Of a stretch of DNA of 64,000 nucleotides, positions 604-15,670 are shown in pieces. The notes beneath the pieces were generated by a model. That model did not search any database. It saw only the letters and a program-made list of their open reading frames with translations, and had not been told where the DNA came from. The DNA lies in NCBI GenBank assembly GCA_046050355.1, contig JBJOPW010000002.1, positions 43,853 to 107,852 on the forward strand, read 5' to 3'. The stretch comes from Candidatus Parcubacteria bacterium. Lineage in GTDB: Bacteria > Patescibacteriota > Minisyncoccia > Phycocordibacterales > UBA918. Within the stretch, counting starts at the first letter, position 1; each line of letters starts with the position of its first letter. The position numbers and the translations under genes are program-made.

Positions 604-710
604 GGAGCGATGTTTTCTGCTTGGCTAAAGCAGAAAACCGCGAGGTGGGGTCGAGAACACTTAGTAGATTGGGAACGAAGTGAACCAATATACTTAGTGA
701 TTCGTGACCA
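604..710 (+). repeat. Copy A of a ~108-nt tRNA-associated repeat element.
   Basis: Variable 5' hairpin (GTTTTCTGCTT..AAGCAGAAAAC) followed by a conserved ~75-nt core. The core contains the hairpin AGTAGATTGG[GAACGAAGTGAA]CCAATATACT. About 90% identical to copies at 5437-5545 (minus) and 15505-15612 (plus). Confidence 0.65.
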
Positions 711-793
711 CAAACGGTACGAAAAAGCGCACCCTTATGGGTGCCTTTTTCGTTCGTGCTTTCACAGCAAAGCCTCTCGAGGCTTTGCGTCAG

Positions 794-864
794 GAATCGA
801 AGCCCGATTGAGAGTAGATTATGAGCTTGTGAAATAATCTAGCCACGAGCGTGATCGATTCCTG
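794..864 (+). repeat. Distal part of the composite element at the first tRNA locus: inverted T-arm copy, conserved-loop-type hairpin, partial direct repeat of the tRNA 3' region.
   Basis: GGAATCGAAGCC (794-805) is the reverse complement of the tRNA T-arm region. Hairpin TAGATTA[tGAGCTTGTGAAAt]TAATCTA at 815-841. TCGATTCCTG (855-864) matches the tRNA T-arm/acceptor junction. Confidence 0.4.
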
Positions 865-965
865 TTGACTTTGAGGCGCATAGTATACTTCCCGTGTTAC
901 AATCGACATGTTACAAAATAAAGTATTGTATGATTAAAACCATATCATTAGAACGGTTCATTATT

Positions 966-1769
966 ATGAGTTTGCTAGCGGCTGGATTTTTGCTTCAGGC
1001 AGGTATTGCCGCTGCTGCCACAACTGGCACTTTGCTTCCCACGACTGACGGCATCAATGCCAGTTGGACCCCAAAAACTGGCACTACCCACTACACGATG
1101 GTGGATGAGACGGCTTGCAATGGCACCACTGATTATGTATCAGAAACTACTGTCGGGGAGCGCGATTCATATCAGGTATCATTGGCTTCTGTGCCAGCCA
1201 ACGCTGAGATTACGAGTATTGCTATTGTGCCGTGCGCCTCTCGCAATAGTTCGGGTGGTGGTTCGTCAGTAATGGACGTGTTTTATCGCTTCAATGGCGC
1301 ACAGAGTGCTGACCAAGGTGGCTATGCGCTCACTGGTACCACTCCAACAGCCCTTGCAACGACTACTTTTTCTGGTTTGAGCCTAATCAATGCTGCATCG
1401 AGCACCCTTGAAGTAGGAGCGGTTTATACTTCAGGTACTAAGGGTGCTCGCTTGAGTCGTTTGGCTACGGTCATTACTTATACTCCGGCGGTGACGATCC
1501 CAACTGCGCCAACCAACTTCTTTGCCTTGGCGACCTCAACCGGTACCACTACCGGTGTTTACGCTTTTTGGACTGACAATTCAACCAATGAACAAGGTTT
1601 TAAGCTTGAACGTAGTACTGATAACGTGAACTTTAGTCTCGTAACAACCACTACTGGTCGCACCTTCCTCGATACTCCGGTTGCGAGTGGTACTTACTAC
1701 TACCGAGTCTACGCATACAATACTGCTGGTAACTCTAGTTACGCTACAAGTACTGCCATCGTACCGTAA
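966..1769 (+). CDS. Secreted protein with a C-terminal fibronectin type III-like domain.
   Basis: Signal-peptide-like N-terminus (MSLLAAGFLLQAGIAAAA). Thr/Gly/Ser-rich. C-terminal FWTDNS...YYYRVYAYNTAGNS resembles Fn3. The long ORF from 894 was trimmed to the ATG at 966. Confidence 0.5.
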   Translation: MSLLAAGFLLQAGIAAAATTGTLLPTTDGINASWTPKTGTTHYTMVDETACNGTTDYVSETTVGERDSYQVSLASVPANAEITSIAIVPCASRNSSGGGSSVMDVFYRFNGAQSADQGGYALTGTTPTALATTTFSGLSLINAASSTLEVGAVYTSGTKGARLSRLATVITYTPAVTIPTAPTNFFALATSTGTTTGVYAFWTDNSTNEQGFKLERSTDNVNFSLVTTTTGRTFLDTPVASGTYYYRVYAYNTAGNSSYATSTAIVP

Positions 1770-1859
1770 GCGAGAACAATATCCAACAAAATGCCACGCC
1801 ACTGCGCGTGGCTTTTTGTTTTTGCCATTTCACCCTATCTCGCATACAATACGACACAT

Positions 1860-2240
1860 ATGCGACTCATGGGTATTGATTACGGCACTAAAAAAGTGGG
1901 GATTGCCTTTACGGATGAAAGTGGGAAGATGGCGTTCCCGCATGGAGTAATACCCAATACACCCAAATTGCTTGATGTTATCACTGGCCTCATTAACGAA
2001 AAACGAGTAGGAGCGGTAGTCATCGGTCACTCACTAGATAAAGAAGGGAAACCTAACACTGTTCAGGCAGCGGTCGAGTCCCTGATGCTTGACCTTACAC
2101 TAGCGACCGGACTCCCCATCCATCTTGAACCCGAACAGTACTCAACCCAAGCCGCCTTACAATTACAAGGGAGGACGGCCCAGACTGATGCTTCAGCAGC
2201 AGCCCTCATTCTTGATGGATACCTTACTCGTAAAAAATAA
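1860..2240 (+). CDS. ruvX: Holliday junction resolvase-like protein YqgF/RuvX.
   Basis: MRLMGIDYGTKKVGIAFTDE N-terminal motif typical of the RuvX/YqgF RNase H-like family. Start chosen at the in-frame ATG at 1860. Confidence 0.8.
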   Translation: MRLMGIDYGTKKVGIAFTDESGKMAFPHGVIPNTPKLLDVITGLINEKRVGAVVIGHSLDKEGKPNTVQAAVESLMLDLTLATGLPIHLEPEQYSTQAALQLQGRTAQTDASAAALILDGYLTRKK

Positions 2241-2250
2241 TCAAACAATT

Positions 2251-2583
2251 ATGGAACAAATCACGTATGAAGATTTTGCTAAATTACATATTGGTATTGG
2301 TACAATACTGACTGTTGAAATTGTTGAGGGGGCAGATAAATTATTGAAACTCGCCGTGGAAGTAGGCGAGGAGAAACCACGACAGATTCTATCTGGTATC
2401 AGGGAATATTTTGCAGACCCGCAAGTACTGGTGGGGAAGCAATTTCCGTTTGTGCTTAATCTGGCTCCCCGGGTGATTCGGGGGTTTGAGAGTCAGGGCA
2501 TGATACTGGCGGCTAGTTATGAAGACGCATTGGCACTTCTAGCGCCGACAATCACCGTAGCACCTGGTACCAAAGTGAAATAG
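2251..2583 (+). CDS. tRNA-binding protein (Trbp111/CsaA-like OB-fold, EMAP domain).
   Basis: 110 aa. GIGTILTVEIVEGADKLLKLAVEVGEE...QILSGIREYF...GKQFPFVLNLAPRVIRGFESQGMILAA matches the tRNA-binding domain. Start at MEQITYEDF. Confidence 0.75.
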   Translation: MEQITYEDFAKLHIGIGTILTVEIVEGADKLLKLAVEVGEEKPRQILSGIREYFADPQVLVGKQFPFVLNLAPRVIRGFESQGMILAASYEDALALLAPTITVAPGTKVK

Positions 2584-2687
2584 GTGTGGGTTCCGGCAGC
2601 GAATTAGACAAAGCACAACGTATAATACAAGTAATGTCTTTTAGTTCGTTGCTTGCGCAGTATTTGCCACCGCCACAGTTCCTTAAA

Positions 2688-3728
2688 ATGCCAAGTTTAG
2701 GGGTTGATATTTCTGATACATCTCTTAAGTACATTCAATTTGGTGAGGGAAAGAAAAACATGCGCCCGCTCGTAACCTGGGGAGAGATTGATATTCCAAG
2801 TGGCATACTTGAACGAGGCTATGTGCATGATCAAAAAAAGCTGACCGATGTCTTAAAAGAATGTAAGGCTAAAACCGACGCTACATTTGTACGGGTATCA
2901 TTGCCTGAAGAGCGTGCCTATTTGTTTGAAACCGAAATAAAGCGATCAACACCAACTAAAGAAATTCGTAGCCTACTCGAATTTAGGTTGGAAGAAAATG
3001 TTCCGATTCCTGCCCGTGACGCTTTCTTTGATTTTGATATTTTAGCGGGAGAGACTAATGATAAAACTATACAAGTAGTAGTCGCCGCATATGCCCGCGA
3101 GACCATTCTTAATTATTTTGACGCCTGCAATGAAGCGGGTCTCGTGCCCATTGCCTTTGAAGTAGAAGCGCAGGCGATGGTGCGATCGGTACTACCGACT
3201 GGTATGCGAGGGGCGCATATGCTGGTAGATTTTGGAAAGACCCGGACCGGGGTTGGTATCGTGCTTGATGGAAAGTTGATGTACACCTCAACCATTGATT
3301 TTGGCGGCAATCAATTATCCGAAGTGCTCCGGAAAGTTCATGGACAAATCACAGAAGGAGAACTGACAACCATTAAAAATACTCAAGGGCTCATTAAGGG
3401 GGTACATGACACGAGAAGTTATGACGCGCTCATCTCAACCATGTCGGTGATTAAAGACGAACTCGCTTCGCGGATACAATATTGGCACAGTAGTGAAAAT
3501 AAAACCGAGTCACGTCGTATCCAATCAGTCATACTGTGCGGTGGCAGTTCTAATCTAAAGGGGTTGCCAGAGTATTTTACCGAGACACTTGGTGTACCAA
3601 CCTCACGGGCGAGTGTGTGGCAAAATGCATTTTCAGTACATAATTATATTCCACCTATTAGTATTCGCCATTCCTACGGCTATGCCACTGCTATTGGACT
3701 GGCATTACCACCCGATACTTCACTATGA
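2688..3728 (+). CDS. pilM: Type IV pilus assembly ATPase-like protein PilM.
   Basis: Actin-like fold pattern (GVDISDTSLKYIQ..., LVDFGKTRTGVGIV). First gene of a pilM-N-O-like operon with 4-nt overlaps. Start trimmed to MPSLGVD. Confidence 0.7.
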   Translation: MPSLGVDISDTSLKYIQFGEGKKNMRPLVTWGEIDIPSGILERGYVHDQKKLTDVLKECKAKTDATFVRVSLPEERAYLFETEIKRSTPTKEIRSLLEFRLEENVPIPARDAFFDFDILAGETNDKTIQVVVAAYARETILNYFDACNEAGLVPIAFEVEAQAMVRSVLPTGMRGAHMLVDFGKTRTGVGIVLDGKLMYTSTIDFGGNQLSEVLRKVHGQITEGELTTIKNTQGLIKGVHDTRSYDALISTMSVIKDELASRIQYWHSSENKTESRRIQSVILCGGSSNLKGLPEYFTETLGVPTSRASVWQNAFSVHNYIPPISIRHSYGYATAIGLALPPDTSL

Positions 3729-4261
3729 CCAATCTTATTCCCCCTAGTGCTGAAAAGCTTGTTATTAAAGAGTACTGGCTCCGGGTGGTGGCAGTCTGGT
3801 TATTTTTATTTGGAACTGGCTGTTTGATTGTAGCGAGTCTCCATCTGCCGACTTACGTATTGGTACGTAACGAGTTGACTGACTTGCGACAGCAGGTAGC
3901 AAATAATGCAGCCGAAACAGCCAGTATTGATACCAGCTCAGCCGCCATACAAGTAGCCATGACCGATGCCACTTTACTGCTAACGATGGGCACTAGCAGT
4001 GGTCAACATGTAGCAACAATTGAAGCGCTGACTACTATTGCCGGCAGTGATGTAGCACTGTCTTCGTTCTCACTCACGGTCAATGAAAAAAGTACCCAAA
4101 TAACTATCACTGGTACCGCACGAACTCGTACCGCTTTGGCGAATTTTCGTGACGCAATAGAAGCCGATGATCGATTTACTGATGCTATATTGCCAATATC
4201 CAGCTTAATTAAAGATCGCAACATTGACTTTACTATGACAGTAACAAGTAATAACCTATGA
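3725..4261 (+). CDS. pilN: PilN-like type IV pilus assembly protein.
   Basis: N-terminal NLIPP motif, single TM, then a periplasmic domain. Overlaps pilM by 4 nt (ATGA). Confidence 0.5.
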   Translation: MTNLIPPSAEKLVIKEYWLRVVAVWLFLFGTGCLIVASLHLPTYVLVRNELTDLRQQVANNAAETASIDTSSAAIQVAMTDATLLLTMGTSSGQHVATIEALTTIAGSDVALSSFSLTVNEKSTQITITGTARTRTALANFRDAIEADDRFTDAILPISSLIKDRNIDFTMTVTSNNL

Positions 4262-4767
4262 CCAAAAAGACTGTCACCACCCTTGGCATTGCTACCCTCT
4301 ACTTTGCGGTAGTATTGTCCGTGTTGATCTACGCGTATGTGTCAGTCCATTCACAAAAGGCTGATGCCCTGGCTTTAGCAACGACACTGGCTGAGCAGAC
4401 GAGCAAACAATCAATTGCTCGTTCTCTAGCTGCTACCTTTGATGCAACGATCGATGTACGCACTGAGATTGCCTCTTATTTTCTTGAGGAAAAAGAAACA
4501 ATCACCTTCATTGCTGAAATCGAGGCGTTAGCTCAGGCCCTAGGTGTCAGTATTGAACCGACGGCACTGGATTTTGTTACAACCGAATCAGGAAGGCGAG
4601 AGCTCAAAACCGGTTTCGCGGTTAAAGGTACTCGTACGGCCGTCTTACAATTCATGAAGGCAATTGAAACAATCCCGTACCATAGTCGGATTGCATCGCT
4701 GCAGGTGGTGGGGAATGATAATGAATGGAGCGGGCAGGTTGATCTTTTTGTTACAATAAAACCATGA
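4258..4767 (+). CDS. pilO: PilO-like type IV pilus assembly protein.
   Basis: Single N-terminal TM and about 140-aa periplasmic domain. Translationally coupled to pilN and the downstream ORF. Confidence 0.45.
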   Translation: MTKKTVTTLGIATLYFAVVLSVLIYAYVSVHSQKADALALATTLAEQTSKQSIARSLAATFDATIDVRTEIASYFLEEKETITFIAEIEALAQALGVSIEPTALDFVTTESGRRELKTGFAVKGTRTAVLQFMKAIETIPYHSRIASLQVVGNDNEWSGQVDLFVTIKP

Positions 4768-5222
4768 TAGACCAAGCAAAATTACAAACAATCATCACCC
4801 GCCTCGTACGGTCATCCTCGGTTGTTGAGCGACCAGCGATGAGTCCGGCTCGTGAATGGTTCACCGGTATCCTCATTACAATTTGTTTTGTATGTGTTGG
4901 TGGAGTAGTGAGTTATTGGTTATATCTTAATACCGTATCGGTAGAAGCGGAGGTGCAGGATAGTATAACCGCTACTTCATACAAAGGCGCCTTAGTCGAA
5001 GAGGCGGTTATGCGTTTTCGTGCCCGGGGCGCTGCTTACGAGCAGATTCGCGCCCGACAAAACGATCTGCAGCCAGTTGAGGCAATGGCGCCGGTGCCAC
5101 CAGTAACGACTGAGTCACCAATTACTGAGGTTCCTGCGGACCTTACGCCAGAACCACAGATACCAACGGTGGAGCCTGCAGAAGAAGCGACAGAGGAGTC
5201 TGCACCAACGTTGAGTTTTTAG
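4764..5222 (+). CDS. Membrane-anchored protein with a Pro/Glu/Thr-rich C-terminus (possible pilus-associated PilP-like component).
   Basis: Coupled to pilO by a 4-nt overlap. One TM. Low-complexity acidic C-terminal tail. Confidence 0.35.
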   Translation: MIDQAKLQTIITRLVRSSSVVERPAMSPAREWFTGILITICFVCVGGVVSYWLYLNTVSVEAEVQDSITATSYKGALVEEAVMRFRARGAAYEQIRARQNDLQPVEAMAPVPPVTTESPITEVPADLTPEPQIPTVEPAEEATEESAPTLSF

Positions 5223-5276
5223 TCGAAGTCACCGCACTAAACCACATCACTGTTGTGATGTGGTTTAGTGAATTTA

Positions 5277-5420
5277 CTCTGCCCCGGCTTGGAATCGTCC
5301 TGACGGTCACCAAGCTAGATTGTTTCGCTTTTGCTCACAATCTAGCAGGTGCCGCGGGACACGGCTCGCTGGCCCTAAAGGGGACCCCAGCTCCGCCGTT
5401 CGATTCCAAGCCGTGCCTAC
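5277..5420 (-). repeat. Structured tRNA-Arg 3'-end-derived segment: inverted and direct copies of the tRNA 3' end closing a multi-hairpin region that includes a conserved-loop hairpin.
   Basis: 5277-5297 is a 21/21 direct repeat of 5631-5651 (tRNA-Arg 3' end plus 4-nt trailer). 5399-5410 is its inverted complement (12-bp closing stem). Internal hairpin CTAGATTGT[GAGCAAAAGCGAA]ACAATCTAG. Confidence 0.5.
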
Positions 5421-5436
5421 AAATGTTAAATAATTT

Positions 5437-5545
5437 GGTCACGAATCACTAAGTATATTGATTCACTCCGTTCTCAATCTACTAAATGTTCGCGACCCCG
5501 TCTCGCGGTTTTCTGCTTTGGTCAAGCAGAAAACATCGCTGCGAC
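5437..5545 (-). repeat. Copy B of the ~108-nt tRNA-associated repeat element.
   Basis: Reverse complement aligns to copy A, including the GTTTTCTGCTT..AAGCAGAAAAC hairpin and the core ending GATTCGTGACCA. Core hairpin AGTAGATTGA[GAACGGAGTGAA]TCAATATACT. Confidence 0.65.
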
Positions 5546-5587
5546 TCAGAGAGAAGTCGAAAGCAATATTAATTGCTTTCTAAACCA

Positions 5588-5626
5588 AACAAAAGCGCTC
5601 GTTTTGAGCGCTTTTGTTTGGTTTTC
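5588..5626. terminator. Strong hairpin (14-bp stem) immediately downstream of tRNA-Arg(TCT).
   Basis: AAACAAAAGCGCTC-GTTTT-GAGCGCTTTTGTTT with flanking T/A runs. Confidence 0.55.
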
Positions 5627-5633
5627 TTCTCTC

Positions 5634-5705
5634 TGCCCCGGCTTGGAATCGAACCAAGAATAACGGCTTAGAAGTCCGCAGTTATATCCATTTAACTACC
5701 GGGAC
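5634..5705 (-). tRNA. tRNA-Arg (anticodon TCT).
   Basis: Reverse complement folds as a cloverleaf. Acceptor GTCCCGG/CCGGGGC, D-stem GTTA/TAAC with GG in the loop, anticodon loop CTTCTAA, T-arm CTTGG-TTCGATT-CCAAG. No CCA encoded. Confidence 0.8.
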
Positions 5706-5799
5706 GCACCCCATCTAACGATGAGGTGAAGACAGCATAGCAAAAAAATGGTGAGCCGGAAACTTCGTGAATCGCGCAGTGTTTTGTATACTACAAATT

Positions 5800-6537
5800 A
5801 TGCAAGACCGACCGACTATCCTTTTGGTGCAATTCAGACAAACTCCTGCCGCTGATCTCCTCGAACGCCAGAGTGTTGAACGTGAAGTTTCTCTCTTTGC
5901 GACGGTAAAAACTATATGTGGGGTTACCGGCAATGTACTCGAAGCGATACAGGGTGCTGATGGTGTGATACTCGGCGGTTCGGGAGACTATGATTTTGAT
6001 GGAGCGAGATCGCCCGATGATCCAGTACGGGCACGTACCGAAAATCTGTTTCGGTCACTTAGTCCAACGCTCGATTACTTATTTACTATCGATAAGCCAC
6101 TTCTTGGGATTTGTTTTGGACACCAGCTCATGGGTGCCTTTCGGGGTGCCAATGTCTATCACGACACTAACCAGAGCAAATTAAAGACGCATACCGTGAC
6201 GCTCCACGATGAAGGACGGAACCACCGCCTGTTTGCAAATATGCCAGTAACTTTTGATGCACAGTATGGACACAAGGATGTGCTCGCACATATTCCGACG
6301 GGTGCGACTTTGCTTGCGCATGGTGGTGAATCCTGTCGGGTGTCAGCGCTCGCGTATAGTGACAATATTATCTCGACACAATTCCATCCCGAATTATCGC
6401 TCGCTGATATGTATGACCGGGTGGCACATATTCCGCACTATTTACCAGAAGGTACAACCGTTGATGACGTGTTTTTTGATACGCCACACGCGCGGACGAT
6501 TTTGCATAATTTTGCGAAGGTGGTGGTAGCGGGGTAG
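5800..6537 (+). CDS. Class I glutamine amidotransferase-like protein.
   Basis: GICFGHQLM (catalytic Cys elbow) and TQFHPE motifs of the GATase1 family. Start trimmed to the ATG at 5800. Confidence 0.7.
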   Translation: MQDRPTILLVQFRQTPAADLLERQSVEREVSLFATVKTICGVTGNVLEAIQGADGVILGGSGDYDFDGARSPDDPVRARTENLFRSLSPTLDYLFTIDKPLLGICFGHQLMGAFRGANVYHDTNQSKLKTHTVTLHDEGRNHRLFANMPVTFDAQYGHKDVLAHIPTGATLLAHGGESCRVSALAYSDNIISTQFHPELSLADMYDRVAHIPHYLPEGTTVDDVFFDTPHARTILHNFAKVVVAG

Positions 6538-6754
6538 GGGCGGGGACTCGGTCACTCTCGTGGCTATATTAGTTCACAAGTTCATAATCTATGGACTCTT
6601 CAGGACTCGACCCAGAATCACGGTTCTTTTATTCAATACATTGAATAAAAGAAGCTCGTGTTCTTGGTCGGCGACTCCTCGTAATTTCTCTTGGTCAGAG
6701 AAATTACATCGTCCGTCGCTTCGAGTCCCTCACGGAAGCAAAACTATTTGCTTC

Positions 6755-7006
6755 CTATCGCCCACAAACAAAAAGAACCACTCCTGCGGTTCTTTTTGTT
6801 TGTGGCCATGACCGCGACAGAGATCGAACTATCACTGAGTTCCTCAAGAAGTTCGACAAGACGTCCGCCGATGCGTAAAGGCCTTGAAACTTCTGTAATG
6901 TGGCCATGATCGTGACACGGATCGAACTATCAGCGAGTTTCTGAATAAATTCGACAAGCCATCTGTCAGGGAATAAAGACCCTAAGACTTCTGTAAGGCG
7001 GCCCAC
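6755..7006 (-). pseudogene. Fused, frame-shifted tandem copies of a small-gene 3' end (shares the C-terminal peptide ...LQKxQGLYxSAxxLSNFxRNSVIVRSLSRS with 7976-8185).
   Basis: The ORF reads through two tandem ~100-bp DNA repeat units. The stop codon present in the 7976 copy (TGA) is TGG here, and unit 2 is frame-shifted. Confidence 0.3.
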
Positions 7007-7022
7007 ATCGACACATTTCTCG
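6764..7022 (+). repeat. 16-bp-stem hairpin (6764-6803) followed by two tandem ~100-bp repeat units (6803-6900, 6901-~7022). A third unit lies at 7973-8098.
   Basis: Units begin TGG(C/T)CATGA(C/T)CG(C/T)GACA..GATCGAAC and contain GTAAAG.CC.T.A.ACTTCTGTAA. Units 1 and 2 are directly adjacent with no spacer. Confidence 0.6.
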
Positions 7023-7678
7023 AACTTGGGCTCCCAACGACCTTCTAAGGTCGATCATTGAAAGGCTGGCGTCGCGTAAGTTGCCCCAGCAGGCTCGCGA
7101 CAATCATTGCGAGGCCTCCTTGCACTCATTCGATGCCGGCAACAATGGGTCGAAGAGCCTTGACATGCGGCAACGGACTGTTCCACCCTTAGACAGCACT
7201 CAATGAGAGGTTGAATCGACTCGCGCCGAAGTCCTGTTTCGGGTTCACAAAATGCTTCCAACTGTTACTGGTTCCATGCTCGGGATCGGAAGATATCTTA
7301 GTCACAGCGACAACCTAAGTACTTGATTTTATTGAGTTTTCCGCCTTTTTCCTTGCATTTGCCGCTGAGGTATGGGAAGATACTTGGGCGATAGGCTCGA
7401 GGCTGACCCGTCGCGGTGAAAGGTGCTGCAACACCAATCACATGTCCCACAAGGACGGCGCCCCAACCACAACCTGGTTGGGGCTTTCCTTTTATGTTGA
7501 CACGATGTCGTGGTCACATCCACCATGTTCCCATCAGGTTCGAGAATCGGGATGCAGCCCGCGAGCCTGACAGGGTCAGCCTCGGCCCTGCACTTTGTGG
7601 CGCGAATGCCGCTTATCGGCCCGGTGGCTGAGTTTGTACGCGCATTGGAGTGCAGGGCTTCTAGATTGGAGCCTACCC

Positions 7679-7864: not shown

Positions 7865-7930
7865 CATCTCACTAACTCCGGCGGGATCTAGGTCTCGCCG
7901 GAGCCTAATAAATGTGTTTCTGATAGAAGA

Positions 7931-8859: not shown

Positions 8860-9454
8860 GTACTCGCTGCAGCAGCGTTAGTCGCGTATAATTCTTAGCA
8901 TCTTTGATGCAGGCAGGGTTGCGGATATTCAACATTAGGCAAGATCTGGTGAAGAACCATGACTTCAGATAGACTTCTCTCCCCCCAATAAACGGACAGC
9001 GAACAAGATCTACGGTACTTCTGCTAACGAGAAGGGAACGGTTGACCGAAGCTATCAGAGTGTCCATGACGGCATGATCAACAGTATTCCTGAACATCCG
9101 CGGATCGCCCCTTAGTACCTCCGAAAACAAACCTTCAGGTCCTATCTGATCGCGGAGGTCAGACTCTTCACGAAGAAGTTCATATATTTCTTTGACTAGT
9201 GCCCAATGCTTCTTGTCGCAGAGGTTGATCACGGACTCTGCTTCAATTCGTGCTTCAAGGACGACGGGAGTCAATTCAGTTCCGGCGCACTTGTTTTCCG
9301 TCCACGACAACGCATGGCGTGGGCCAGCTTCGAAGAAGTATATGCCTTCACCTAGCCAAAGGCCATCATGTTTACTCGGGTTGAATCTGTTCGATCGAGA
9401 GATTGACTCAGCAGACCCAAGGTCTGTTCCATGATACGCGATGTAGGTATACAA
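8768..9454 (-). CDS. ART-fold protein (RES-domain / PARP-like), putative NAD-utilizing toxin.
   Basis: N-terminal YHGT...NRFNPS...GEGIYFFEAGPRHALSWTE resembles the RES motif (GRFNPpG...lYlaes.etAllE) and the PARP H-G-[ST]/G.GIYF pattern. The C-terminal ~60 aa overlap the DUF3310 ORF and may be read-through. Confidence 0.45.
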   Translation of the reverse strand: MYTYIAYHGTDLGSAESISRSNRFNPSKHDGLWLGEGIYFFEAGPRHALSWTENKCAGTELTPVVLEARIEAESVINLCDKKHWALVKEIYELLREESDLRDQIGPEGLFSEVLRGDPRMFRNTVDHAVMDTLIASVNRSLLVSRSTVDLVRCPFIGGREVYLKSWFFTRSCLMLNIRNPACIKDAKNYTRLTLLQRVLMTELNQPTGLASSKHLLSSRSLMSPARHF

Positions 9455-9485
9455 AAAAATAGGCCCCCAGAGATTGTGGGGGACC

Positions 9486-10169
9486 TTAGCTTCCTACAAC
9501 GGTCTTTGCAAGACTCTCTCCCTGAACTGCATTGATGTTGTTGGGATCAGTGCAGTTGATGCGGTGAAATTCGTTCGCTGCAAAGACAATCACCGAGACA
9601 TTGGCTGAATCCGCCTCTGCCTTGACGATGCTGTAGGCCCTACGCAACTCATCGCGCGAAATCGCGTCAATGGTTAGGCCCATTCGCTTTGTCCTGTTTG
9701 ATAGAGGGGTTGCGTTGTCCCGTAGCTGATTTAAGCTAACCGGAAGAGCATCTGAGCTTGGTTTCCAAGTGCGAGATCCAAGAAGGACTTCGACACCATT
9801 ATCCCTTTGCTCTATATCTCCGCCTGTAATTATAAACTCTAAAGCAACAATTGCAATTAATATACCAACTTGAGGCAATAGAAGGAGAATTGTCAAGTAG
9901 AGCTCAGTTTCTGTCGTCTTTAGGAAGATTAGTGAGGCAGCGCTCGTTAGCAGAAGAATAAGATGGACTATTCCAAGTACAATAGATATCCCTACTCTGC
10001 GCGGAAGTATCTCCCCATGCTCATTTACTTGGGTTATCGGTTCAAAAAGGGTCCGAGCATTCAAAACTACTCGCCTCAATGTGCTTACAAACTGCCGCAA
10101 TGATGACGAACGCTTAACTAGCGCATAGAGGCCTGGTCCGACGGCGAAACTCAAAAGTGATGCTGACAT
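9486..10169 (-). CDS. Two-TM membrane protein of unknown function, directly upstream of and co-oriented with the ART-fold gene.
   Basis: Two adjacent hydrophobic helices (aa ~60-113) and a ~110-aa C-terminal soluble domain. 31-nt gap to the downstream gene. Confidence 0.45.
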   Translation of the reverse strand: MSASLLSFAVGPGLYALVKRSSSLRQFVSTLRRVVLNARTLFEPITQVNEHGEILPRRVGISIVLGIVHLILLLTSAASLIFLKTTETELYLTILLLLPQVGILIAIVALEFIITGGDIEQRDNGVEVLLGSRTWKPSSDALPVSLNQLRDNATPLSNRTKRMGLTIDAISRDELRRAYSIVKAEADSANVSVIVFAANEFHRINCTDPNNINAVQGESLAKTVVGS

Positions 10170-10273
10170 TTGGTCGAAAACTGCTTCTCGAACCGGACCA
10201 TAATCGGAAAATATCCAGTGTTAGAGCCCTATAATTGGCTTCAGATGAGGGAAAATTGTGGGGGTGTCCCCAA

Positions 10274-10349
10274 TGGTGGGCGATGAGGGACTCGAACCCC
10301 CGACCTCGATGGTGTAAACATCTTGCTCTACCAACTGAGCTAATCGCCC
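10274..10349 (-). tRNA. tRNA-Val (anticodon TAC), CCA encoded.
   Basis: Reverse complement GGGCGAT-TA-GCTC..GAGC-A-AGATG-TTTACAC-CATCG-AGGTC-GGGGG-TTCGAGT-CCCTC-ATCGCCC-A-CCA. A hairpin TGGGGGTGTCCCCA lies immediately 3'. Confidence 0.85.
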
Positions 10350-10434: not shown

Positions 10435-11100
10435 ATGAAAATACTCGAAAAGAAGAGGGCTATAGAGTTGCGTGAGCGGGGGATAGCTTTAGGTGAAATC
10501 GCTAAAAAATTAAACGTAGCAAAAGCTACAGTCAGTTATTGGGTACGGGATATTTCATTATCGAAGACACAGATCAAGCAACTCAGAGCGAATAGTCACT
10601 CAAGAGAAGCAATTGAAAAGCGACGATTGTCACGTATGACTGCAGCCGAAAAAATCCGAGATAGTATACGAGAAGAAGCTCGACAACAAGCAGTACAGTT
10701 AATCAAAAATCCATTATGGTGTGTTGCAATAGCCTTATATTGGGGGGAGGGTGGAAAGACGCAACGAACGGTTCGAATCGCAAATAGCGACCCCTCAGTT
10801 ATTAGACTACTTTGCCACTTCTTTAGAAATGAATGTCATGTGCCACTTTCTAAAATGCGAGCACATGTTCATGCGTTTTCGCACAGCGATATTGAATCAA
10901 TAGAGAAGTACTGGTCAAAAATTAGTGGCATACCCAGAAATCAATTTTTTAAGGCATATATTAAACAAAGTAGCTCTAGTAAAGAAAAAAGACAAACACT
11001 TCCAAATGGTACAATGCAAATATATGTACATGATAGTAGTTTGTTTATTAAAATTATAGCTTGGATAGAATATCTGAAAGAGATAAAACATTATGATTGA
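10435..11100 (+). CDS. HTH-domain protein with a possible LAGLIDADG-like motif (candidate free-standing homing endonuclease).
   Basis: N-terminal resolvase/sigma-70 region-4-like HTH (RGIALGEIAKKLNVAKATVSYWVRD). Central AIALYWGEGGK resembles LAGLI(E/D)GDG. AT-rich. Sits between tRNA-Val and acyP. Confidence 0.4.
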   Translation: MKILEKKRAIELRERGIALGEIAKKLNVAKATVSYWVRDISLSKTQIKQLRANSHSREAIEKRRLSRMTAAEKIRDSIREEARQQAVQLIKNPLWCVAIALYWGEGGKTQRTVRIANSDPSVIRLLCHFFRNECHVPLSKMRAHVHAFSHSDIESIEKYWSKISGIPRNQFFKAYIKQSSSSKEKRQTLPNGTMQIYVHDSSLFIKIIAWIEYLKEIKHYD

Positions 11101-13467: not shown

Positions 13468-13496
13468 CAAAACCGACCGTCAGGTCGGTTTTGTTA
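13468..13496 (+). terminator. Rho-independent terminator after rplS.
   Basis: AAAACCGACC-GTCA-GGTCGGTTTTGTT. Confidence 0.6.
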
Positions 13497-13508
13497 TATA
13501 CTGTCGCT

Positions 13509-14348
13509 ATGATAACGAAACCACTTTTTGAAGCACTTATTGCCGAGATTGAATCAGCGGGTGAATTAGCGCACAAATACTTTATTGATAATGAGTCTGA
13601 CAACGAACAAAAAGCTGACGGTTCAGTGGTTACCGTTATCGATACGACCATTGAGACCCGTTTGGTTGCGTTTATTCGTGCACATTTTCCCGACGACACA
13701 ATTGTTGGAGAAGAAGGAGAAGGTGTGATTGGCACCAGTAGTTTCGTTTGGCATATTGATCCGATAGATGGTACAGATAATTTTTTAAGAAGAATTCCAT
13801 TTTGTGCCATCTCAGTGGCACGACTGGGAGATACCGATGAAGATTCGTGTGCGGTGATTCATAACCCAATTACGCAACAAACCTTTTCTAGCTATATGGA
13901 TGAAGCAGTCTACGAAAAGCATATCGTACATCACATGAATGATGATTTAATTGGTGGTCGGGCCATGATTTCTATTGCGCGAGGACGGGTTTCTTGGATG
14001 AAATCAGCCAGCTACAATATACGCAAAGCCCTTGGTCTCCATTTTGGTGGCGGTAATTCGTTTGGTTGTTGTGCGCTTGAACATGCCTATGTGGCGGCCA
14101 ACCGTCTTGATGGAGTTCTTACTTTTGGGTTGCATACCTATGATTATGCTGCCGGATTATATCTTATAAAATCAGCTGGAGGTATTATTTCAGTATTTGA
14201 GGATGACCAATGGCAGCAATGGCAAGGAAGTATCAAAGCACTTTGCTCTCAACATGGCGCCACCATTTTCTCGTCACATCAGGGCATTCATGCTGAGGCG
14301 ATAGCCTATATTGGTAACCCACGAACTTGGAGTGATGAACCCGCTTAA
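13509..14348 (+). CDS. Inositol monophosphatase-family protein (SuhB/CysQ-like).
   Basis: WHIDPIDGTDNFL metal-binding motif. Start trimmed to the ATG at 13509 after the terminator. Confidence 0.75.
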   Translation: MITKPLFEALIAEIESAGELAHKYFIDNESDNEQKADGSVVTVIDTTIETRLVAFIRAHFPDDTIVGEEGEGVIGTSSFVWHIDPIDGTDNFLRRIPFCAISVARLGDTDEDSCAVIHNPITQQTFSSYMDEAVYEKHIVHHMNDDLIGGRAMISIARGRVSWMKSASYNIRKALGLHFGGGNSFGCCALEHAYVAANRLDGVLTFGLHTYDYAAGLYLIKSAGGIISVFEDDQWQQWQGSIKALCSQHGATIFSSHQGIHAEAIAYIGNPRTWSDEPA

Positions 14349-15058
14349 GAATCTTTCTCAGAACCAATCAGAACCTTGCGCAACATTGTACCAACGAGAC
14401 CGAGGAGCATACCAAGTAACAACATGCTTGTAAACCGAGACAGAATGAGCGTGATTGTTCCACCGAGGGTATCTGGTTGCGGATAGCTAATACCACCAAG
14501 AATTGCCCGCAACGCCCACCACATACCACTTGGAATATCCTGAGCAGCTACTTGATGATTTTCAAAAACGTAAAAGAGTGATCCGAGTAGTAATGTCGCA
14601 ATCAAAAGTGTCGCACTATAAATCTCGAGATTTATTTTATACAGTGATTGGGCGGCATTTTTCTTCCGTTTGATTTCTGAGAACTTCGCAAGACGAAGCA
14701 TTCGTAGAAGACGGATGATTCGTACCGCCCGAGTGGCTTTGAGGAAGGTGAGGTTATTTAATCCGAGGTATGAAGGGAGAATGGCAGCGAGGTCGATAAT
14801 ACCAAAAAAACTGAACATATAACGCAACCGGTTTGGACTATAATAGAGCCGAGTAACATACTCGAGACTAAAAATAGTCACAATTGCCATCTCGAGATTG
14901 TGAAATATACCCACATAGACAGATAGGGACGGGACTGTCTCAAGTGCTACAACAGCCACAGCAACTAGGGTTGTGATGGCAAGAAAATGTTCTGTTCCCG
15001 GTGGTGTTACGTCTGAAAACGAGCGTCGGATGACTGGATGTTTCTGTTTTCGTTTCAT
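14345..15058 (-). CDS. Voltage-gated-type ion channel (Ion_trans family).
   Basis: S4-like RAVRIIRLLRMLRLAKF voltage sensor, multiple TM segments, pore-like TLGG segment. Confidence 0.6.
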   Translation of the reverse strand: MKRKQKHPVIRRSFSDVTPPGTEHFLAITTLVAVAVVALETVPSLSVYVGIFHNLEMAIVTIFSLEYVTRLYYSPNRLRYMFSFFGIIDLAAILPSYLGLNNLTFLKATRAVRIIRLLRMLRLAKFSEIKRKKNAAQSLYKINLEIYSATLLIATLLLGSLFYVFENHQVAAQDIPSGMWWALRAILGGISYPQPDTLGGTITLILSRFTSMLLLGMLLGLVGTMLRKVLIGSEKDS

Positions 15059-15151
15059 TGCAATTATCGTAACATAGGGAATCGACAGTGACTTGATAAT
15101 ACTATTGCTTTAGTGCATAATGTCGCCACTTGAGAAATCAAGGTTCTCACC

Positions 15152-15236
15152 TGCCCAGGTGGCGAAATTGGTAGACGCACTACCTTGAGGTGGTAGCGCC
15201 TTCACGGGCATGCTGGTTCAAATCCAGTCTTGGGCA
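15152..15236 (+). tRNA. tRNA-Leu (anticodon GAG), long variable arm.
   Basis: GCCCAGG acceptor, GG in the D-loop, anticodon arm CTACC-TTGAGGT-GGTAG, variable arm CGCCTTCACGGGCAT, T-arm CTGG-TTCAAAT-CCAG. No CCA encoded. Confidence 0.85.
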
Positions 15237-15670
15237 CAAATAGCCGACCGAAACATGAATATGTTTCGGTCGTTGCTATTTGTAGACCAAGACTGGATTT
15301 GAAAGACAGTTTCGGGGTTCCCTTAGGGCCGAAACTGTCCGGGTCGGGCGAATGAGTTATATTGTGAGCAAAGCGAAATAATATAACCATGAGTGTGACC
15401 AAATCCAGTCTTGGGCACAAAGTCGTAAAACAAAAACAATTCTCCAAAAGAGAATTGTTTTTGTTTTAGAAAGCCAATGACTTGGCTTTCGACGACTTTG
15501 TGAAGCGGAGCGTTGTGAGTCGCCCCAGAAAGGCGACGAACCGCGAGCTGGGGTCGAGAACACTTAGTAGATTGAGAACGGAGTGAATCAATATACTTAG
15601 TGATTCGTGACCAGGACAAGCAAACAGGATTAAATAAAAAGCTTAGTAACTCATGACTTAATCCAGTCTT
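15237..15670 (+). mobile_element. Composite non-coding element(s) downstream of tRNA-Leu, bounded by direct repeats of the tRNA 3' end.
   Basis: Hairpin 15245-15276. Inverted copy of the tRNA 3' end at 15284-15302. Hairpin 15305-15338. Conserved-loop hairpin GTTATATTGT[GAGCAAAGCGAA]ATAATATAAC at 15355-15386. A 22-nt exact direct repeat of the tRNA 3' end at 15399-15420. Hairpin 15425-15468. Repeat copy C. A second partial repeat AATCCAGTCTT at 15659-15669. Confidence 0.5.
15505..15612 (+). repeat. Copy C of the ~108-nt tRNA-associated repeat element.
   Basis: Conserved core CCGCGAGCTGGGGTCGAGAACACTTAGTAGATTGAGAACGGAGTGAATCAATATACTTAGTGATTCGTGACCA. Its 5' hairpin differs from copies A and B (GTCGCC..GGCGAC). 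Confidence 0.65.

What the first reader, a model, noticed from the sequence alone, without database searches (positions are those of the whole stretch)
604..15612. ~108-nt repeat family with three tRNA-adjacent, tRNA-sense copies and a compensatory base-pair change
Copies at 604-710 (+), 5437-5545 (-) and 15505-15612 (+) share a ~75-nt core. The core reads CCGCGAG.TGGGGTCGAGAACACTTAGTAGATTG.GAACG.AGTGAA.CAATATACTTAGTGATTCGTGACCA. In it the hairpin AGTAGATTGG/CCAATATACT (copy A) becomes AGTAGATTGA/TCAATATACT (copies B and C). A G-to-A change on one strand is matched by a C-to-T change on the other, which preserves pairing. The 5' hairpin is swapped between copies: A and B carry GTTTTCTGCTT..AAGCAGAAAAC, C carries GTCGCC..GGCGAC. 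The core hairpin loop GAACG(A/G)AGTGAA is a variant of the GAGCAAAGCGAA loop found in the other tRNA-flanking hairpins, and the stems share TAGATTG. The two hairpin types therefore appear to be paralogous. Copies A and B lie inside the tRNA-flanking composite elements. Copy C lies in a second tandem unit after tRNA-Leu.
Basis: seen in the sequence. Interest (0 to 1): 0.75.

Follow-up and report, generated by a model that had tools for sequence, protein, structure and literature searches.

The report
tRNA-end structured repeat cassette family
The ~108-nt repeat is real: it is the conserved two-hairpin core of a previously undescribed family of small structured cassettes that sit just after tRNA and tmRNA genes in Paceibacteria (CPR bacteria), and that look like miniature insertions carrying both an inverted and a direct copy of the tRNA's 3' end.

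Summary
The window holds six clear units plus a displaced seventh. All are tRNA-sense, and they lie next to 4 of its 5 tRNAs. The core is domain 1 (P0, P0b, P1) plus a 61-nt irregular hairpin, P2. P2 is strongly supported by covariation: 24 of 25 pairs change on both sides, there is a near-invariant G-U wobble, and G-U outnumbers A-C by 125 to 12.

One strict pattern found 85 loci, almost all in Patescibacteria/Paceibacteria genomes. Of 144 model hits, 112 lie within 700 nt downstream of a same-strand tRNA or tmRNA. A few follow terminators of protein genes. Rfam 15 and the literature searches gave no match.

The usual layout is: tRNA 3' segment X, terminator-like hairpin T, inverse copy X', core, then a direct copy of X. 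A related genome has an empty tRNA-Arg(tct) site. Presence differs at orthologous tRNAs, and tandem arrays occur.

Best reading (about 0.45): a non-autonomous integrative cassette with a folded single-strand attachment site and an unknown trans-acting enzyme. Main rival (about 0.3): a host-useful RNA in tRNA 3' trailers. No recombinase gene was found nearby.

The parts
441..513 (+). tRNA-Arg(gcg), host gene of composite 1. Its last bases plus trailer (509-519, AGCACAGCAGT) pair with 'anti' 589-599.
   Evidence: ARAGORN, Rfam, coordinates
520..586 (+). T, a terminator-like near-perfect palindrome (520-563), and H, a 9-bp stem with a 4-nt loop (565-586).
   Evidence: H is homologous between copies A and B, with compensatory stem changes.
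589..599 (+). 'anti' segment ACTGCTGTGCT, the reverse complement of the tRNA-Arg(gcg) end plus trailer. It is a locus-specific cassette inside a conserved scaffold.
   Evidence: comparison of the same scaffold at other tRNAs
601..646 (+). Domain 1 of copy A: P0 (601-603 / 644-646), internal loop GGA / GA, P0b (607-609 / 639-641), P1 hairpin (612-638).
649..709 (+). P2 of copy A. A 61-nt irregular hairpin with loop GA[AC-GAA-GU]GAA, followed by CACA, which matches the tRNA end.
   Evidence: model R1 hit 639-711, 92.8 bits; covariation
719..864 (+). Second, degenerate module after tRNA-Arg(gcg): T2 (719-753), anti-a (756-765), H2 (767-788), anti-b CAGGAATCGAA (791-801), variant P2-like hairpin (810-846), direct copy of the T-arm CGATTCCTG (856-864).
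   Evidence: (partial hit 815-841). Two tandem copies of this module occur in L094.
5634..5705 (-). tRNA-Arg(tct), host gene of composite 2. X = CGATTCCAAGCCGGGGCAGAG at 5631-5651.
5437..5625 (-). Copy B with its module: T (5582-5625), H (5559-5580), anti CTTCTCTCTG (5547-5556), domain 1 (5508-5545, with P1 at 5508-5534), P2 (5437-5497).
   Evidence: (88.0 bits)
5277..5416 (-). 'Closed' unit: inverse copy of the tRNA 3' half (5398-5416), P1 (5362-5397), P2 with GAGCAAAAGCGAA loop (5297-5360), 21-nt direct repeat of X (5277-5297).
   Evidence: -80.1 kcal/mol, z -7.0; 42.2 bits. Empty orthologous site in L094.
5235..5270 (-). Native bidirectional terminator, retained to the right of the insert. 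It is shared with the convergent gene ending at 5222.
15153..15240 (+). tRNA-Leu(gag), host gene of composite 3. X = CAAATCCAGTCTTGGGCACAAA at 15219-15240.
15242..15421 (+). Closed unit 1 after tRNA-Leu: T (15242-15277), inverse copy CCAAGACTGGATTTG (15287-15301), P1 (15305-15339), P2 (15342-15400), 22-nt exact direct repeat of X (15400-15421).
   Evidence: -68 kcal/mol, z -8.1; 31.9 bits
15427..15612 (+). Copy C with its module: T (15427-15467), H (15469-15490), anti CGACTTTGTG (15493-15502), domain 1 with P1 at 15519-15537, P2 (15552-15612).
   Evidence: (89.5 bits)
15632..15671 (+). Truncated third unit (3' half of a P2, 15632-15657) followed by a degenerate copy of the tRNA-Leu T-arm (15659-15671).
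   Evidence: (I3)
19012..19297 (-). tRNA-His (19223-19297) with a closed unit: palindrome of tRNA end + T + anti-a (19179-19233), H (19156-19177), anti-b CCGGGAATTGAA (19142-19153), P1 (19104-19129), P2 with GAGCAAAGCGAA loop (19032-19092), decayed direct repeat (19012-19031).
   Evidence: I4; 88.3 bits
6540..6820 (-). Displaced tRNA-Val-type composite with no adjacent tRNA: decayed tRNA-Val 3' half, T, anti-a TGTGGGCGAT, H, anti-b GAGGGACTCGAA, P1, two divergent P2-like hairpins, and a copy CGAGTCCCCGCCCC. The tRNA-Val gene lies 3.5 kb upstream on the same strand.
   Evidence: (weak hit 6607-6680, 19 bits); segments read by eye

Best explanation
The repeat is the conserved core of a lineage-specific family of small, gene-less, structured cassettes of about 110-350 nt. 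They are inserted at the 3' ends of tRNA and tmRNA genes, and occasionally after the terminators of protein genes, in Paceibacteria.

Shown: the core is two hairpin domains that fold on the tRNA-sense strand. In the commonest ('closed') layout the order is: tRNA 3' segment X (from the T loop to the end), a terminator-like hairpin T, an inverse copy X' (often split by a small hairpin H), the core, then a direct copy of X.

Inferred: this order is what results if a small circle [X'-core-X-T], whose X'/X stem imitates the double-stranded target, recombines through X with the identical X of the tRNA gene. That is how folded single-strand attachment sites work in integron cassettes and in the CTX phage. 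The tRNA stays intact, the displaced X decays, and repeated events give tandem arrays. In the 'open' copies A, B and C the identity segment is only the last few tRNA bases. There, a locus-specific 10-13-nt segment inside a constant scaffold pairs with the tRNA end plus trailer.

Also inferred: the invariant features of P2 are the recognition surface for a conserved enzyme encoded elsewhere in the genome. The enzyme, and whether the active form is DNA or RNA, are unknown.
For: Family and structure:
- Three near-identical copies plus divergent ones lie only at tRNAs in the window.
- 85 loci were found in other genomes with one strict pattern.
- 112 of 144 model hits lie within 700 nt downstream of a same-strand tRNA/tmRNA, covering all isoacceptor types and four tmRNAs.
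- P2 covaries: 91% of cells paired, 24 of 25 pairs changed on both sides, score 0.44 against 0.15 shuffled and 0.04-0.10 slid.
- G-U 125 against A-C 12 fixes the strand.
- P0 and P0b covary.

Insertion signature:
- An inverse copy of the tRNA end is present in about 63 of 70 tRNA-linked loci.
- In roughly a dozen of them a direct copy starts at the unit's last base, at T-loop position C56.
- L094, syntenic with the window, has an empty tRNA-Arg(tct) site. The window has about 355 nt there, bounded by a 21-nt direct repeat, with the native terminator kept to the right.
- Orthologous tRNA-His, tRNA-Val and tRNA-Leu sites are filled, empty, partial or differently arranged in related genomes.
- Tandem identical arrays occur (L077, L025, L094).
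- A unit sits inside a partial tRNA-Val copy (L016), and one is nested in another unit's repeat (L035).
- The same P1 subfamily sits at tRNA-Lys(ttt), Lys(ctt), Arg(tcg), Arg(gcg) and Arg(tct) with different 'anti' segments, and after an rpsI-like gene, where by-eye reading of the sequence shows a 7-nt flanking repeat.
- Composites displaced from their tRNA by islands (window 6540-6820; L082, L039, L003) show that these tRNA ends are integration hot spots.
- The predicted excised circles are 78-79% paired.
Against: - No integrase, transposase or reverse transcriptase was found among the 45 window ORFs scanned.
- No recombinase family appeared among the families displayed for 150 ORFs flanking units (only 25 of 91 families were shown, so a single occurrence could be hidden).
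- No copy was found in 2.9 million viral contigs.
- No excised form or circle junction was observed.
- P2 is 92-100% identical between genomes whose coding DNA is about 73% identical. The whole Arg(gcg) composite is about 97% identical between the window and L084. Dead insertions would decay, so this suggests constraint on each copy, or recent exchange.
- Nearest relatives of a unit are usually in other genomes, not in the same genome (90 of 105), so there is no sign of recent bursts.
- The inverse copy X' is better kept than the direct copy (mean 17.9 against 13.0 of 22 positions). This fits selection for X/X' pairing as well as it fits the circle model.
- A 160-200-nt circle is unusually small for a mobile DNA.
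Confidence: 0.45

Rival explanations
1. The unit is a host-useful RNA element of tRNA/tmRNA 3' trailers, transcribed by read-through of T. P2 and domain 1 would bind a conserved protein involved in processing, termination back-up, insulation or stability. In closed units the X'/X helix reproduces the acceptor and T stems of the neighbouring tRNA, so RNase P, RNase Z and the CCA-adding enzyme could cut out a discrete RNA of about 150 nt. The long X-T-X' duplex could be an RNase III site. The elements would spread by duplication but be kept by selection.
For: - The unit is on the same strand as the tRNA in essentially every tRNA-linked case.
- There is covariation with G-U pairs, a near-invariant G-U wobble, conserved G-A mismatches and two GNA/GA internal loops, which is typical of RNA-protein sites.
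- P2 and the whole composite are far more conserved than neighbouring coding DNA.
- Within one population the unit varies less than its flanks: 2 variable sites in about 150 nt, against 9 in 205 nt of coding sequence and 7 in 45 nt of flank.
- X' is kept perfectly complementary to the tRNA while the direct copy decays. This state is shared by the window and L074 at tRNA-His.
- tRNA and tmRNA share processing enzymes.
Against: - T looks like an efficient intrinsic terminator placed before the unit.
- Units are absent from many tRNAs, and presence differs at orthologous tRNAs of genomes about 79% identical.
- Tandem arrays, nested and truncated copies, and copies after protein genes fit a repeat element better.
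- The strict pattern was found in only about 70 of 185,579 species genomes, although the pattern is strict and repeats break assemblies.
- There is no expression evidence.
Confidence: 0.3
2. The units are scars of classical integrase-driven islands that target tRNA genes. The two arms of an attachment site would be left fused (attL-attR) after the island's genes were deleted, or would be mobilised in trans like the cis-mobilisable elements (CIMEs) of streptococci.
For: - Direct repeats run from the T loop to a few bases past the tRNA end, the classical identity block of tRNA-targeting integrases.
- tRNA and tmRNA genes are the classical targets.
- Islands with phage-like genes sit between a tRNA and a displaced composite (window 6800-10273; L082).
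Against: - No integrase was seen in the scanned window ORFs or among the families displayed for flanking ORFs.
- The base next to the repeat is the constant GTGAC of P2 whatever the tRNA, so there is no inverted core-binding site matched to each T stem.
- One conserved arm serves more than 20 different tRNA targets, which is not how integrase specificity behaves.
- Strand-specific covariation with G-U pairs is not expected of double-stranded arm sites.
- The inverse copy X' is not a feature of such sites.
Confidence: 0.12
3. There is no specific element. The inverted and direct copies and the hairpins are by-products of replication template switching (fold-back copying) at terminator palindromes downstream of highly transcribed genes.
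For: - T plus X' forms perfect palindromes of 25-38 bp centred on the terminator loop.
- Paired 'compensatory' changes in T between the window and L084 are what one templated event would give.
- Template switching is known to create and maintain hairpins and inverted triplications (PMC8794818, PMC10766183, found).
Against: This cannot explain a 61-nt hairpin conserved at 90-100% across orders, with invariant mismatches, bulge and loop. It also cannot explain why the same core is found at more than 20 kinds of tRNA. It may well explain how X' arises.
Confidence: 0.05

Closest known systems
Integron gene cassettes (attC sites) and CTX-phage-type folded attP sites (elements that exploit Xer recombinases)
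   Same: The recombination site is an imperfect hairpin that folds on one strand, with conserved unpaired or extrahelical bases. A small circular, non-replicating intermediate is involved. Integration occurs into one defined double-stranded site. Arrays are built by repeated insertion, and gene-less cassettes exist. After integration, the two halves of the hairpin lie in inverted orientation in the chromosome.
   Different: The attC core motifs (RYYYAAC / GTTRRRY) are absent from P2. The target is a tRNA/tmRNA 3' end, not attI or dif. The stem of the putative site copies the target sequence and differs from locus to locus. No IntI or Xer link has been shown. Most copies carry no gene.
REP/BIME (REPIN) elements with RAYT, and IS200/IS605-derived palindrome-associated elements
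   Same: They are short, structured, multi-copy, extragenic repeats placed after genes, with strand-specific hairpins containing conserved mismatches. They are mobilised in trans by a single-copy enzyme that acts on single-stranded DNA. In IS200/IS605 the element carries an internal guide that pairs with the flanking target.
   Different: The units here are larger and have two domains. Their targets are tRNA/tmRNA ends. The complementarity to the flank is 10-24 nt rather than 4 nt. A direct repeat of the target is present. No Y1/HUH transposase gene was seen in the sequence examined.
tRNA-gene-targeting genomic islands and cis-mobilisable elements (CIMEs)
   Same: There is a direct repeat of the tRNA 3' part from the T loop to the end. 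The tRNA gene is restored. There is tandem accretion. tmRNA genes are also used.
   Different: The size is 110-350 nt, there are no genes and no integrase, one conserved arm serves many tRNA targets, and an inverse copy of the target is present.
Bacterial class C group II introns
   Same: Insertion occurs just after intrinsic terminator hairpins, with short base pairing between the element and the upstream flank.
   Different: There are no group II intron domains (no Rfam hit) and no reverse transcriptase, and the size is several-fold smaller.
tRNA 3' external transcribed spacer RNAs and tRNA-like modules (bacterial Y RNA YrlA, the tRNA-like domain of tmRNA)
   Same: These are RNAs made from or beside tRNA transcripts. 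Closed units have an acceptor/T-stem mimic that could recruit tRNA-processing enzymes.
   Different: Those RNAs are single-copy genes without repeats of the tRNA end. There is no Rfam match. Transcription of the units is untested.

Membership tests
Any Rfam 15 family | Covariance-model match at or near the gathering score | tested here: not met
   cmscan of the window at gathering thresholds returned only tRNAs and RNase P RNA. A permissive E-value scan of 380-900 gave only weak chance-level hits (RNAI 22 bits against a gathering score of 47). 14 related loci returned only tRNA, tmRNA and LOOT.
Integron attC site | Inverse core RYYYAAC and core GTTRRRY at the foot of the hairpin | tested here: not met
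   The foot of P2 is GGGGTCG / CGTGACC in 83 of 83 aligned copies. Checked by eye only, not with IntegronFinder.
Integron attC site | Imperfect palindrome folding on one strand, with conserved extrahelical bases | tested here: met
   Bulged A62, a U-U mismatch, A-G and G-A mismatches, and G-U 125 against A-C 12.
Integron attC site | Associated IntI integrase and attI site | not tested
   Only 64 kb plus 8-kb loci were available. None was seen in the scanned window ORFs or among the families displayed for flanking ORFs.
tRNA-targeting integrative island / CIME | Direct repeat of the tRNA 3' segment flanking the insert | tested here: met
   21-nt and 22-nt exact repeats in the window. In roughly a dozen other loci a repeat of up to 22 nt starts exactly at the unit's end. 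An empty site exists in L094.
tRNA-targeting integrative island / CIME | Tyrosine or serine integrase encoded in the element (island), or a related full-length element in the same genome (CIME) | tested here: not met
   No integrase domain in 45 window ORFs, and none among the 25 of 91 families displayed for 150 ORFs flanking units. Whole genomes were not available.
REP/RAYT or IS200/IS605-derived element | Y1 (HUH) transposase gene flanked by, or co-occurring with, the repeats | tested here: inconclusive
   None in the window or displayed among flanking ORFs. Genome-wide co-occurrence could not be tested.
REP/RAYT or IS200/IS605-derived element | Short hairpin of 20-40 nt with a conserved 5' tetranucleotide (REP), or similar hairpins at both ends (IS200/IS605) | tested here: not met
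   The unit is 110-130 nt with two unlike domains. T, H, P1 and P2 are not similar to each other.
Group II intron, class C | Ribozyme domains (domain V and others) and position after a terminator hairpin | tested here: not met
   The position after a terminator-like hairpin is met. No group II intron model matched.
Retroviral-type primer binding site | Complementarity to the mature tRNA 3' end, including CCA | tested here: not met
   The 'anti' segments complement the genomic trailer after the discriminator, not CCA.

The most novel reading that the evidence does not exclude
The cassettes are a new kind of target-programmed integration system. The locus-specific segment X', embedded in a constant scaffold (H, linker, P1, P2), acts as a guide or as half of a folded attachment site. 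It sets the target by base pairing or by mimicry of the tRNA/tmRNA 3' end. A conserved host enzyme recognises P2. The result would be an integron- or CTX-like single-strand recombination whose specificity is written in nucleic acid rather than in the protein.
Probability: 0.2. Interest if true: 0.9.

Novelty: new variant of a known kind. Interest (0 to 1): 0.72.

Why it matters
CPR bacteria have very small genomes, yet this window spends about 1.5 kb on these cassettes around five tRNAs. A conserved, covarying, strand-specific structure that recurs at tRNA and tmRNA ends across several Paceibacteria lineages, and that matches no Rfam family or any paper found here, points to one of two things. 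It is either a new non-autonomous mobile element with an unusual, target-copying attachment site, or a new class of tRNA-linked RNA. If the first is right, it leads to an unidentified recombinase whose target choice may be set by sequence carried in the element, which is of interest for genome engineering. If the second is right, it bears on how tRNAs are matured or insulated in organisms that lack many standard RNases. On the practical side, these repeats break metagenomic assemblies at tRNA loci. They could also serve as a marker for integration hot spots in CPR genomes.

Tried and rejected
- Rfam at gathering and permissive thresholds: nothing.
- Six literature searches and two papers read: the paper on group I introns in Patescibacteria tRNAs and the TIGR-Tas paper. 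Neither describes these elements.
- Viral contigs, two patterns: no hit.
- The look-up of encoding contigs with the neighbouring phosphomannomutase gene: only a 2.4-kb contig that starts just after the units. This probably reflects an assembly break at the repeat.
- Known RNA motifs checked by eye and rejected. Hammerhead: no CUGAUGA core at the three-way junction. K-turn: the GNA/GA loops lack the 3-nt bulge followed by GA. H/ACA guide: no pseudouridylation pocket, and ACA follows only some copies. Hairpin ribozyme, T-box and the sarcin-ricin loop: only scattered short similarities.
- Primer-binding-site idea: rejected, because the complement covers the trailer and not CCA.
- Correlation between the P2 loop variant and the tRNA's T-loop sequence: none seen.
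- Clustering of units by genome or by tRNA identity: none. This argues against both simple vertical descent and recent bursts.
- A short match at 30722-30738(-): an isolated 17-mer next to a gene start. The model does not support it, so it is treated as chance.
- Search for an autonomous copy, meaning a unit next to a recombinase: none in 150 flanking ORFs or in the window, with the caveat that only 25 of 91 families were displayed for the flanking ORFs.

Full report
**Observation**

- The repeat finder gives 603-710 against 5436-5543 as inverted arms (108 nt, 91%). It gives 636-710 against 15539-15613 as direct copies (75 nt, 95%).
- The sequences show the quoted core, the G-to-A change matched by C-to-T, and the exchanged 5' hairpin.
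- Each copy folds into two adjacent hairpins, with z-scores of -5.6 to -7.0 against dinucleotide shuffles.

**Context**

The window carries five tRNA genes: Arg-gcg 441-513+, Arg-tct 5634-5705-, Val-tac 10274-10349-, Leu-gag 15153-15237+ and His-gtg 19223-19297-. It also carries an RNase P RNA. Its genes are housekeeping ones: pilM, ruvX, uppS, rplS, ribonucleotide reductase, aminoacyl-tRNA synthetases and nusG. The nearest public genomes are Paceibacteria/Patescibacteria MAGs, at about 73-84% nucleotide identity in coding regions.

**Anatomy of the unit**

I aligned 83 copies and wrote the structure of the long hairpin, P2, by hand.
- On that alignment 91.6% of cells pair and 12 of 25 pairs change on both sides. 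The covariation score is 0.352, against 0.130 in shuffles (0 of 500 reach it) and 0.05-0.10 for slid partners.
- That set was retrieved with a sequence pattern that fixes part of the 5' strand and the loop. I therefore built model R1, collected 103 copies with it, and counted again. This gave 91.2% paired, 24 of 25 pairs changed on both sides, and 0.440 against 0.147. An alignment fitted to a model leans towards that model, but the slid controls keep relatedness and stay below 0.10.
- One pair is a G-U wobble in 83 of 83 pattern-selected copies and in 90 of the 98 scorable model-collected copies. Overall G-U outnumbers A-C by 125 to 12, or 42 to 12 without the invariant pair. So the fold belongs to the tRNA-sense strand, either as RNA or as single-stranded DNA.
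- Conserved irregularities: an A-G mismatch, a bulged A, a U-U mismatch and a G-A mismatch.
- The apical loop reads GA[R-C RRA G-Y]GAA. Its inner pair covaries (GC 51, AU 30).
- Upstream of P2, two 3-bp helices (P0 and P0b) enclose a GSA/GA internal loop and lead into the variable hairpin P1. P0 and P0b covary: GAC/GTC 18, GCC/GGC 16, GGC/GCC 11, AGC/GCT 5, ACC/GGT 4. I searched for the best register in a 60-nt span, so that test is weaker than the one for P2.

**Copies in the window**

With filters off, R1 finds six units, all tRNA-sense and all beside four of the five tRNAs.
- The four high-scoring hits (88-93 bits) are 639-711+ (copy A), 15542-15614+ (copy C), 19030-19102- (the His unit) and 5435-5507- (copy B).
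- The two more divergent hits are 5295-5370- (42 bits) and 15332-15402+ (32 bits).
- A partial hit lies at 815-841.
- A seventh, divergent composite lies at 6540-6820 on the minus strand (see "Islands at tRNA ends").

**Distribution**

- One scan of 185,579 species genomes with GGGGTCGNGNNNAYTTAGN{8,12}GARCRRAGYGAA returned 85 loci. Nearly all are labelled Patescibacteria: Kaiser-, Nomura-, Lloyd-, Zambryski- and Yonathbacteria, 'Paceibacterota', and some 'Saccharibacteria' labels that I could not verify.
- 66 of 86 matches lie within 500 nt downstream of a same-strand tRNA or tmRNA, most of them 78-138 nt from it. All kinds of tRNA are represented. Two further matches follow tmRNA genes that only Rfam detected.
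- With R1, 144 hits were found in these loci. 112 lie within 700 nt downstream of a same-strand tRNA/tmRNA, 13 are at a locus edge, and 19 lie elsewhere. 86 of the 121 tRNA/tmRNA genes in the loci carry a unit. This fraction is inflated, because the loci were chosen for having a unit.
- Two patterns found nothing in the viral collection.

**The surrounding grammar**

Folding 40 tRNA-linked loci showed a constant layout. I use these names:
- **X**: the tRNA segment from T-loop position C56 to a few bases past the discriminator.
- **T**: a terminator-like hairpin with an A tract and a U tract.
- **X'**: the reverse complement of X, contiguous with the 3' arm of T. Together, X, T and X' form a perfect palindrome of 25-38 bp.
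- **H**: a 9-bp hairpin, often with a CUGC loop, that interrupts X' at a variable point.

In 'closed' units the order is tRNA(X), T, X'(H), core, X. In roughly a dozen loci the direct copy of X starts at the very base after the GTGAC of P2.

It pairs with the last 4-5 tRNA bases plus the trailer. Only a few bases after P2 (CACA, CCGC, CACATACG) repeat the tRNA end.

An inverse copy of at least 8 nt is present in about 63 of 70 tRNA-linked loci. In 61 loci it matches on average 17.9 of 22 positions of X, against 13.0 for the direct copy. With the lenient gaps used, a random baseline is near 8-11.

Between copies A and B, the parts H, linker, P1 and P2 are homologous. H shows compensatory changes. 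T is unrelated, and 'anti' is specific to each tRNA.

The same scaffold, with the same P1, was recovered from metagenomes:
- after tRNA-Lys(ttt), Lys(ctt) and Arg(tcg), each with its own 'anti';
- after the stop codon of an rpsI-like gene. By-eye reading of the sequence there shows the gene end (AAAACGATAA) paired with its complement across an H-like hairpin, and a 7-nt repeat (ACGATAA) before what looks like the native terminator.

So the rule is 'after a terminator-type hairpin, mostly of tRNA/tmRNA genes', not 'tRNA only'.

**Evidence for gain, loss and rearrangement**

- L094 is syntenic with window 1-6100 at about 73-82% identity. Its tRNA-Arg(tct) is followed directly by one terminator and the stop of the convergent gene. 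The window has about 355 nt there, bounded by the 21-nt repeat CGATTCCAAGCCGGGGCAGAG (5631-5651 and 5277-5297). Its native terminator (5235-5270) is still next to the gene end.
- tRNA-His is filled in the window, L070 and L074, and empty in L085. L085 is the closest relative in that region (about 79%).
- tRNA-Val(tac) has no adjacent unit in the window, is filled in L006 and L040, and carries a module without P2 in L054.
- At tRNA-Leu, the window and L085 carry different kinds and numbers of units.
- L094 has two tandem modules of about 240 nt at tRNA-Arg(gcg), where the window has copy A plus one module.
- L077 has three identical tandem units of 146 nt after a uppS-like gene.
- L016 has a unit inside a partial copy of tRNA-Val, between the D arm and the anticodon stem, just upstream of the intact gene.
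- L035 has a canonical P2 nested in the direct repeat of another unit.

**Islands at tRNA ends**

On the minus strand at 6540-6820 there is a composite whose 'anti' segments (TGTGGGCGAT and GAGGGACTCGAA) complement the 3' half of tRNA-Val. That gene lies 3.5 kb upstream.

Between the two lie ORFs that match phage protein families (phrog_236, phrog_14664). There are also three copies of a 150-nt repeat (6802-6951, 6900-7049, 7972-8121). Each copy ends in a decayed tRNA-Val 3' half.

The same picture appears in L082 (tRNA-Gly, a 2.6-kb island, then a Gly-type composite), L055, L003 and L039 (three His-type composites alternating with genes). In each case a decayed tRNA 3' half precedes T. These tRNA ends are therefore integration hot spots, and older composites get pushed downstream.

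**How it most likely works**

Shown: the order X, T, X', core, X; the empty site; the arrays; and the strand-specific fold.

Inferred: a circle reading X', core, X, T has a stem X'/X that imitates the double-stranded target, with the core as one end-loop and T as the other. If this circle recombines through X with the tRNA gene, it gives exactly the observed order. It restores the tRNA and leaves a displaced X beside the native terminator. The predicted circles are 78-79% paired, which is expected from their hairpin content. This is how integron cassettes and the CTX phage integrate.

Open units would use a much shorter identity segment at the very end of the tRNA, with 'anti' pairing to the flank.

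The perfect X-T-X' palindromes could instead arise by fold-back copying at the terminator. Such template switching is documented to make and maintain hairpins and inverted triplications (PMC8794818, PMC10766183). I regard that as a possible source of X', not as an explanation of the conserved core.

**What speaks against a purely selfish element**

- No recombinase, transposase or reverse transcriptase was found among the 45 window ORFs scanned, nor among the families displayed for 150 ORFs flanking units (25 of 91 families shown).
- P2 is 92-100% identical between genomes whose coding DNA is about 73% identical or not alignable.
- The whole tRNA-Arg(gcg) composite of the window and L084 is about 97% identical over about 385 nt. 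The sequence just upstream of the tRNA cannot be aligned, and the few changes in T are paired.
- In one population (L088, L090, L092) the unit has 2 variable sites in about 150 nt, against 9 in 205 nt of coding sequence and 7 in the next 45 nt.
- Units do not cluster by genome.
- X' stays complementary to the tRNA while the direct copy decays. The window and L074 share this state at tRNA-His.

These points fit either a conserved trans-acting partner with ongoing exchange of copies, or a host function of the RNA. I therefore give the integrative-cassette reading 0.45 and the functional trailer-RNA reading 0.30. The two are not exclusive.

**Comparison with known systems**

- Nothing in Rfam 15 matches.
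- The closest analogies in how it works are integron attC / CTX-type folded sites, REP/RAYT and IS200/IS605-derived repeats, tRNA-targeting islands and CIMEs, and class C group II introns.
- Each fails at least one defining feature: the core motifs, the associated enzyme, the size, or the ribozyme domains.
- I therefore file the units under none of these. I rate the finding as a new variant of the general kind 'small structured non-autonomous repeat or integration cassette'.

**Limits**

- Only 64 kb of the source genome and 8-kb pieces of other genomes were available.
- Repeats of this kind break assemblies, so copy numbers per genome are unknown.
- Whether the units are transcribed, and whether the active form is RNA or DNA, could not be tested with these tools.

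Noticed in passing
window 6800-10273 (minus-strand reading), with repeats at 6802-6951, 6900-7049 and 7972-8121: An island lies between tRNA-Val(tac) and a displaced Val-type composite. Its ORFs match phage protein families (8437-8859 phrog_236 'nucleotide kinase'/DUF3310-like; 8768-9454 phrog_14664, with an HGT..GIYF motif seen by eye). It also has three copies of a 150-nt repeat, each ending in a decayed tRNA-Val 3' half and followed by a hairpin. On the plus strand these repeats show third-codon-like variation in a frame reading ..GHDRDxDRTITEFLKKFDK..*, so they may also encode a short peptide tail.
   Followed up: partly
window 27852-28250 (+): A bacterial class A RNase P RNA scores just above Rfam's gathering score (109 against 100 bits). 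No unit lies next to it.
   Followed up: no
window 10274-10349 (-) and 19223-19297 (-), compared with 441-513, 5634-5705 and 15153-15237: By eye, tRNA-Val and tRNA-His encode the 3' CCA, whereas tRNA-Arg(gcg), Arg(tct) and Leu(gag) do not. Orthologous tRNAs in related genomes differ in this respect (for example Val in L006 and L040 lacks CCA).
   Followed up: no
window 10435-11100 (+): An ORF beside and divergent from tRNA-Val has an N-terminal HTH_23 domain and a weak phage DNA-binding match (phrog_664). The rest of the protein is unassigned.
   Followed up: partly
L016 4040-4330 (minus strand): A partial copy of tRNA-Val(gac) (acceptor 5' strand plus D arm) is followed by an H hairpin, a short unit and the anticodon stem-loop. 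All of this lies about 30 nt upstream of the intact tRNA-Val gene. It is a unit inserted inside a tRNA fragment, at position 26.
   Followed up: partly
L021, L039 (three times), L055, L082, L003 (twice): Units not next to a tRNA are preceded by a conserved box, (C/A)AGTTCTAAC or GTTCTGAA, 20-25 nt before T. I read this box as the T-loop end of a decayed tRNA 3' half. A promoter -10 function was considered but not established.
   Followed up: partly
L029 1534-1651 (+): A LOOT RNA (RF03000, 64.8 bits) occurs in one of the Patescibacteria loci. It is unrelated to the units.
   Followed up: no
L082 1438-4050: A 2.6-kb islet lies between tRNA-Gly(tcc) and a Gly-type composite. It carries three ORFs, one of them DUF3800-like by eye (MFKLYIDESG...). 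It has no integrase.
   Followed up: no
L086 (Logan contig, 2408 nt, identical to window 15584-17991): The only other contig carrying the identical phosphomannomutase starts inside P2 of copy C. This suggests that these repeats break short-read assemblies at tRNA loci.
   Followed up: no
window 39456-43061 (+): A class I aminoacyl-tRNA synthetase of 1201 aa has a histidine phosphatase (His_Phos_1) domain inserted at residues 554-721, which is an unusual fusion.
   Followed up: no
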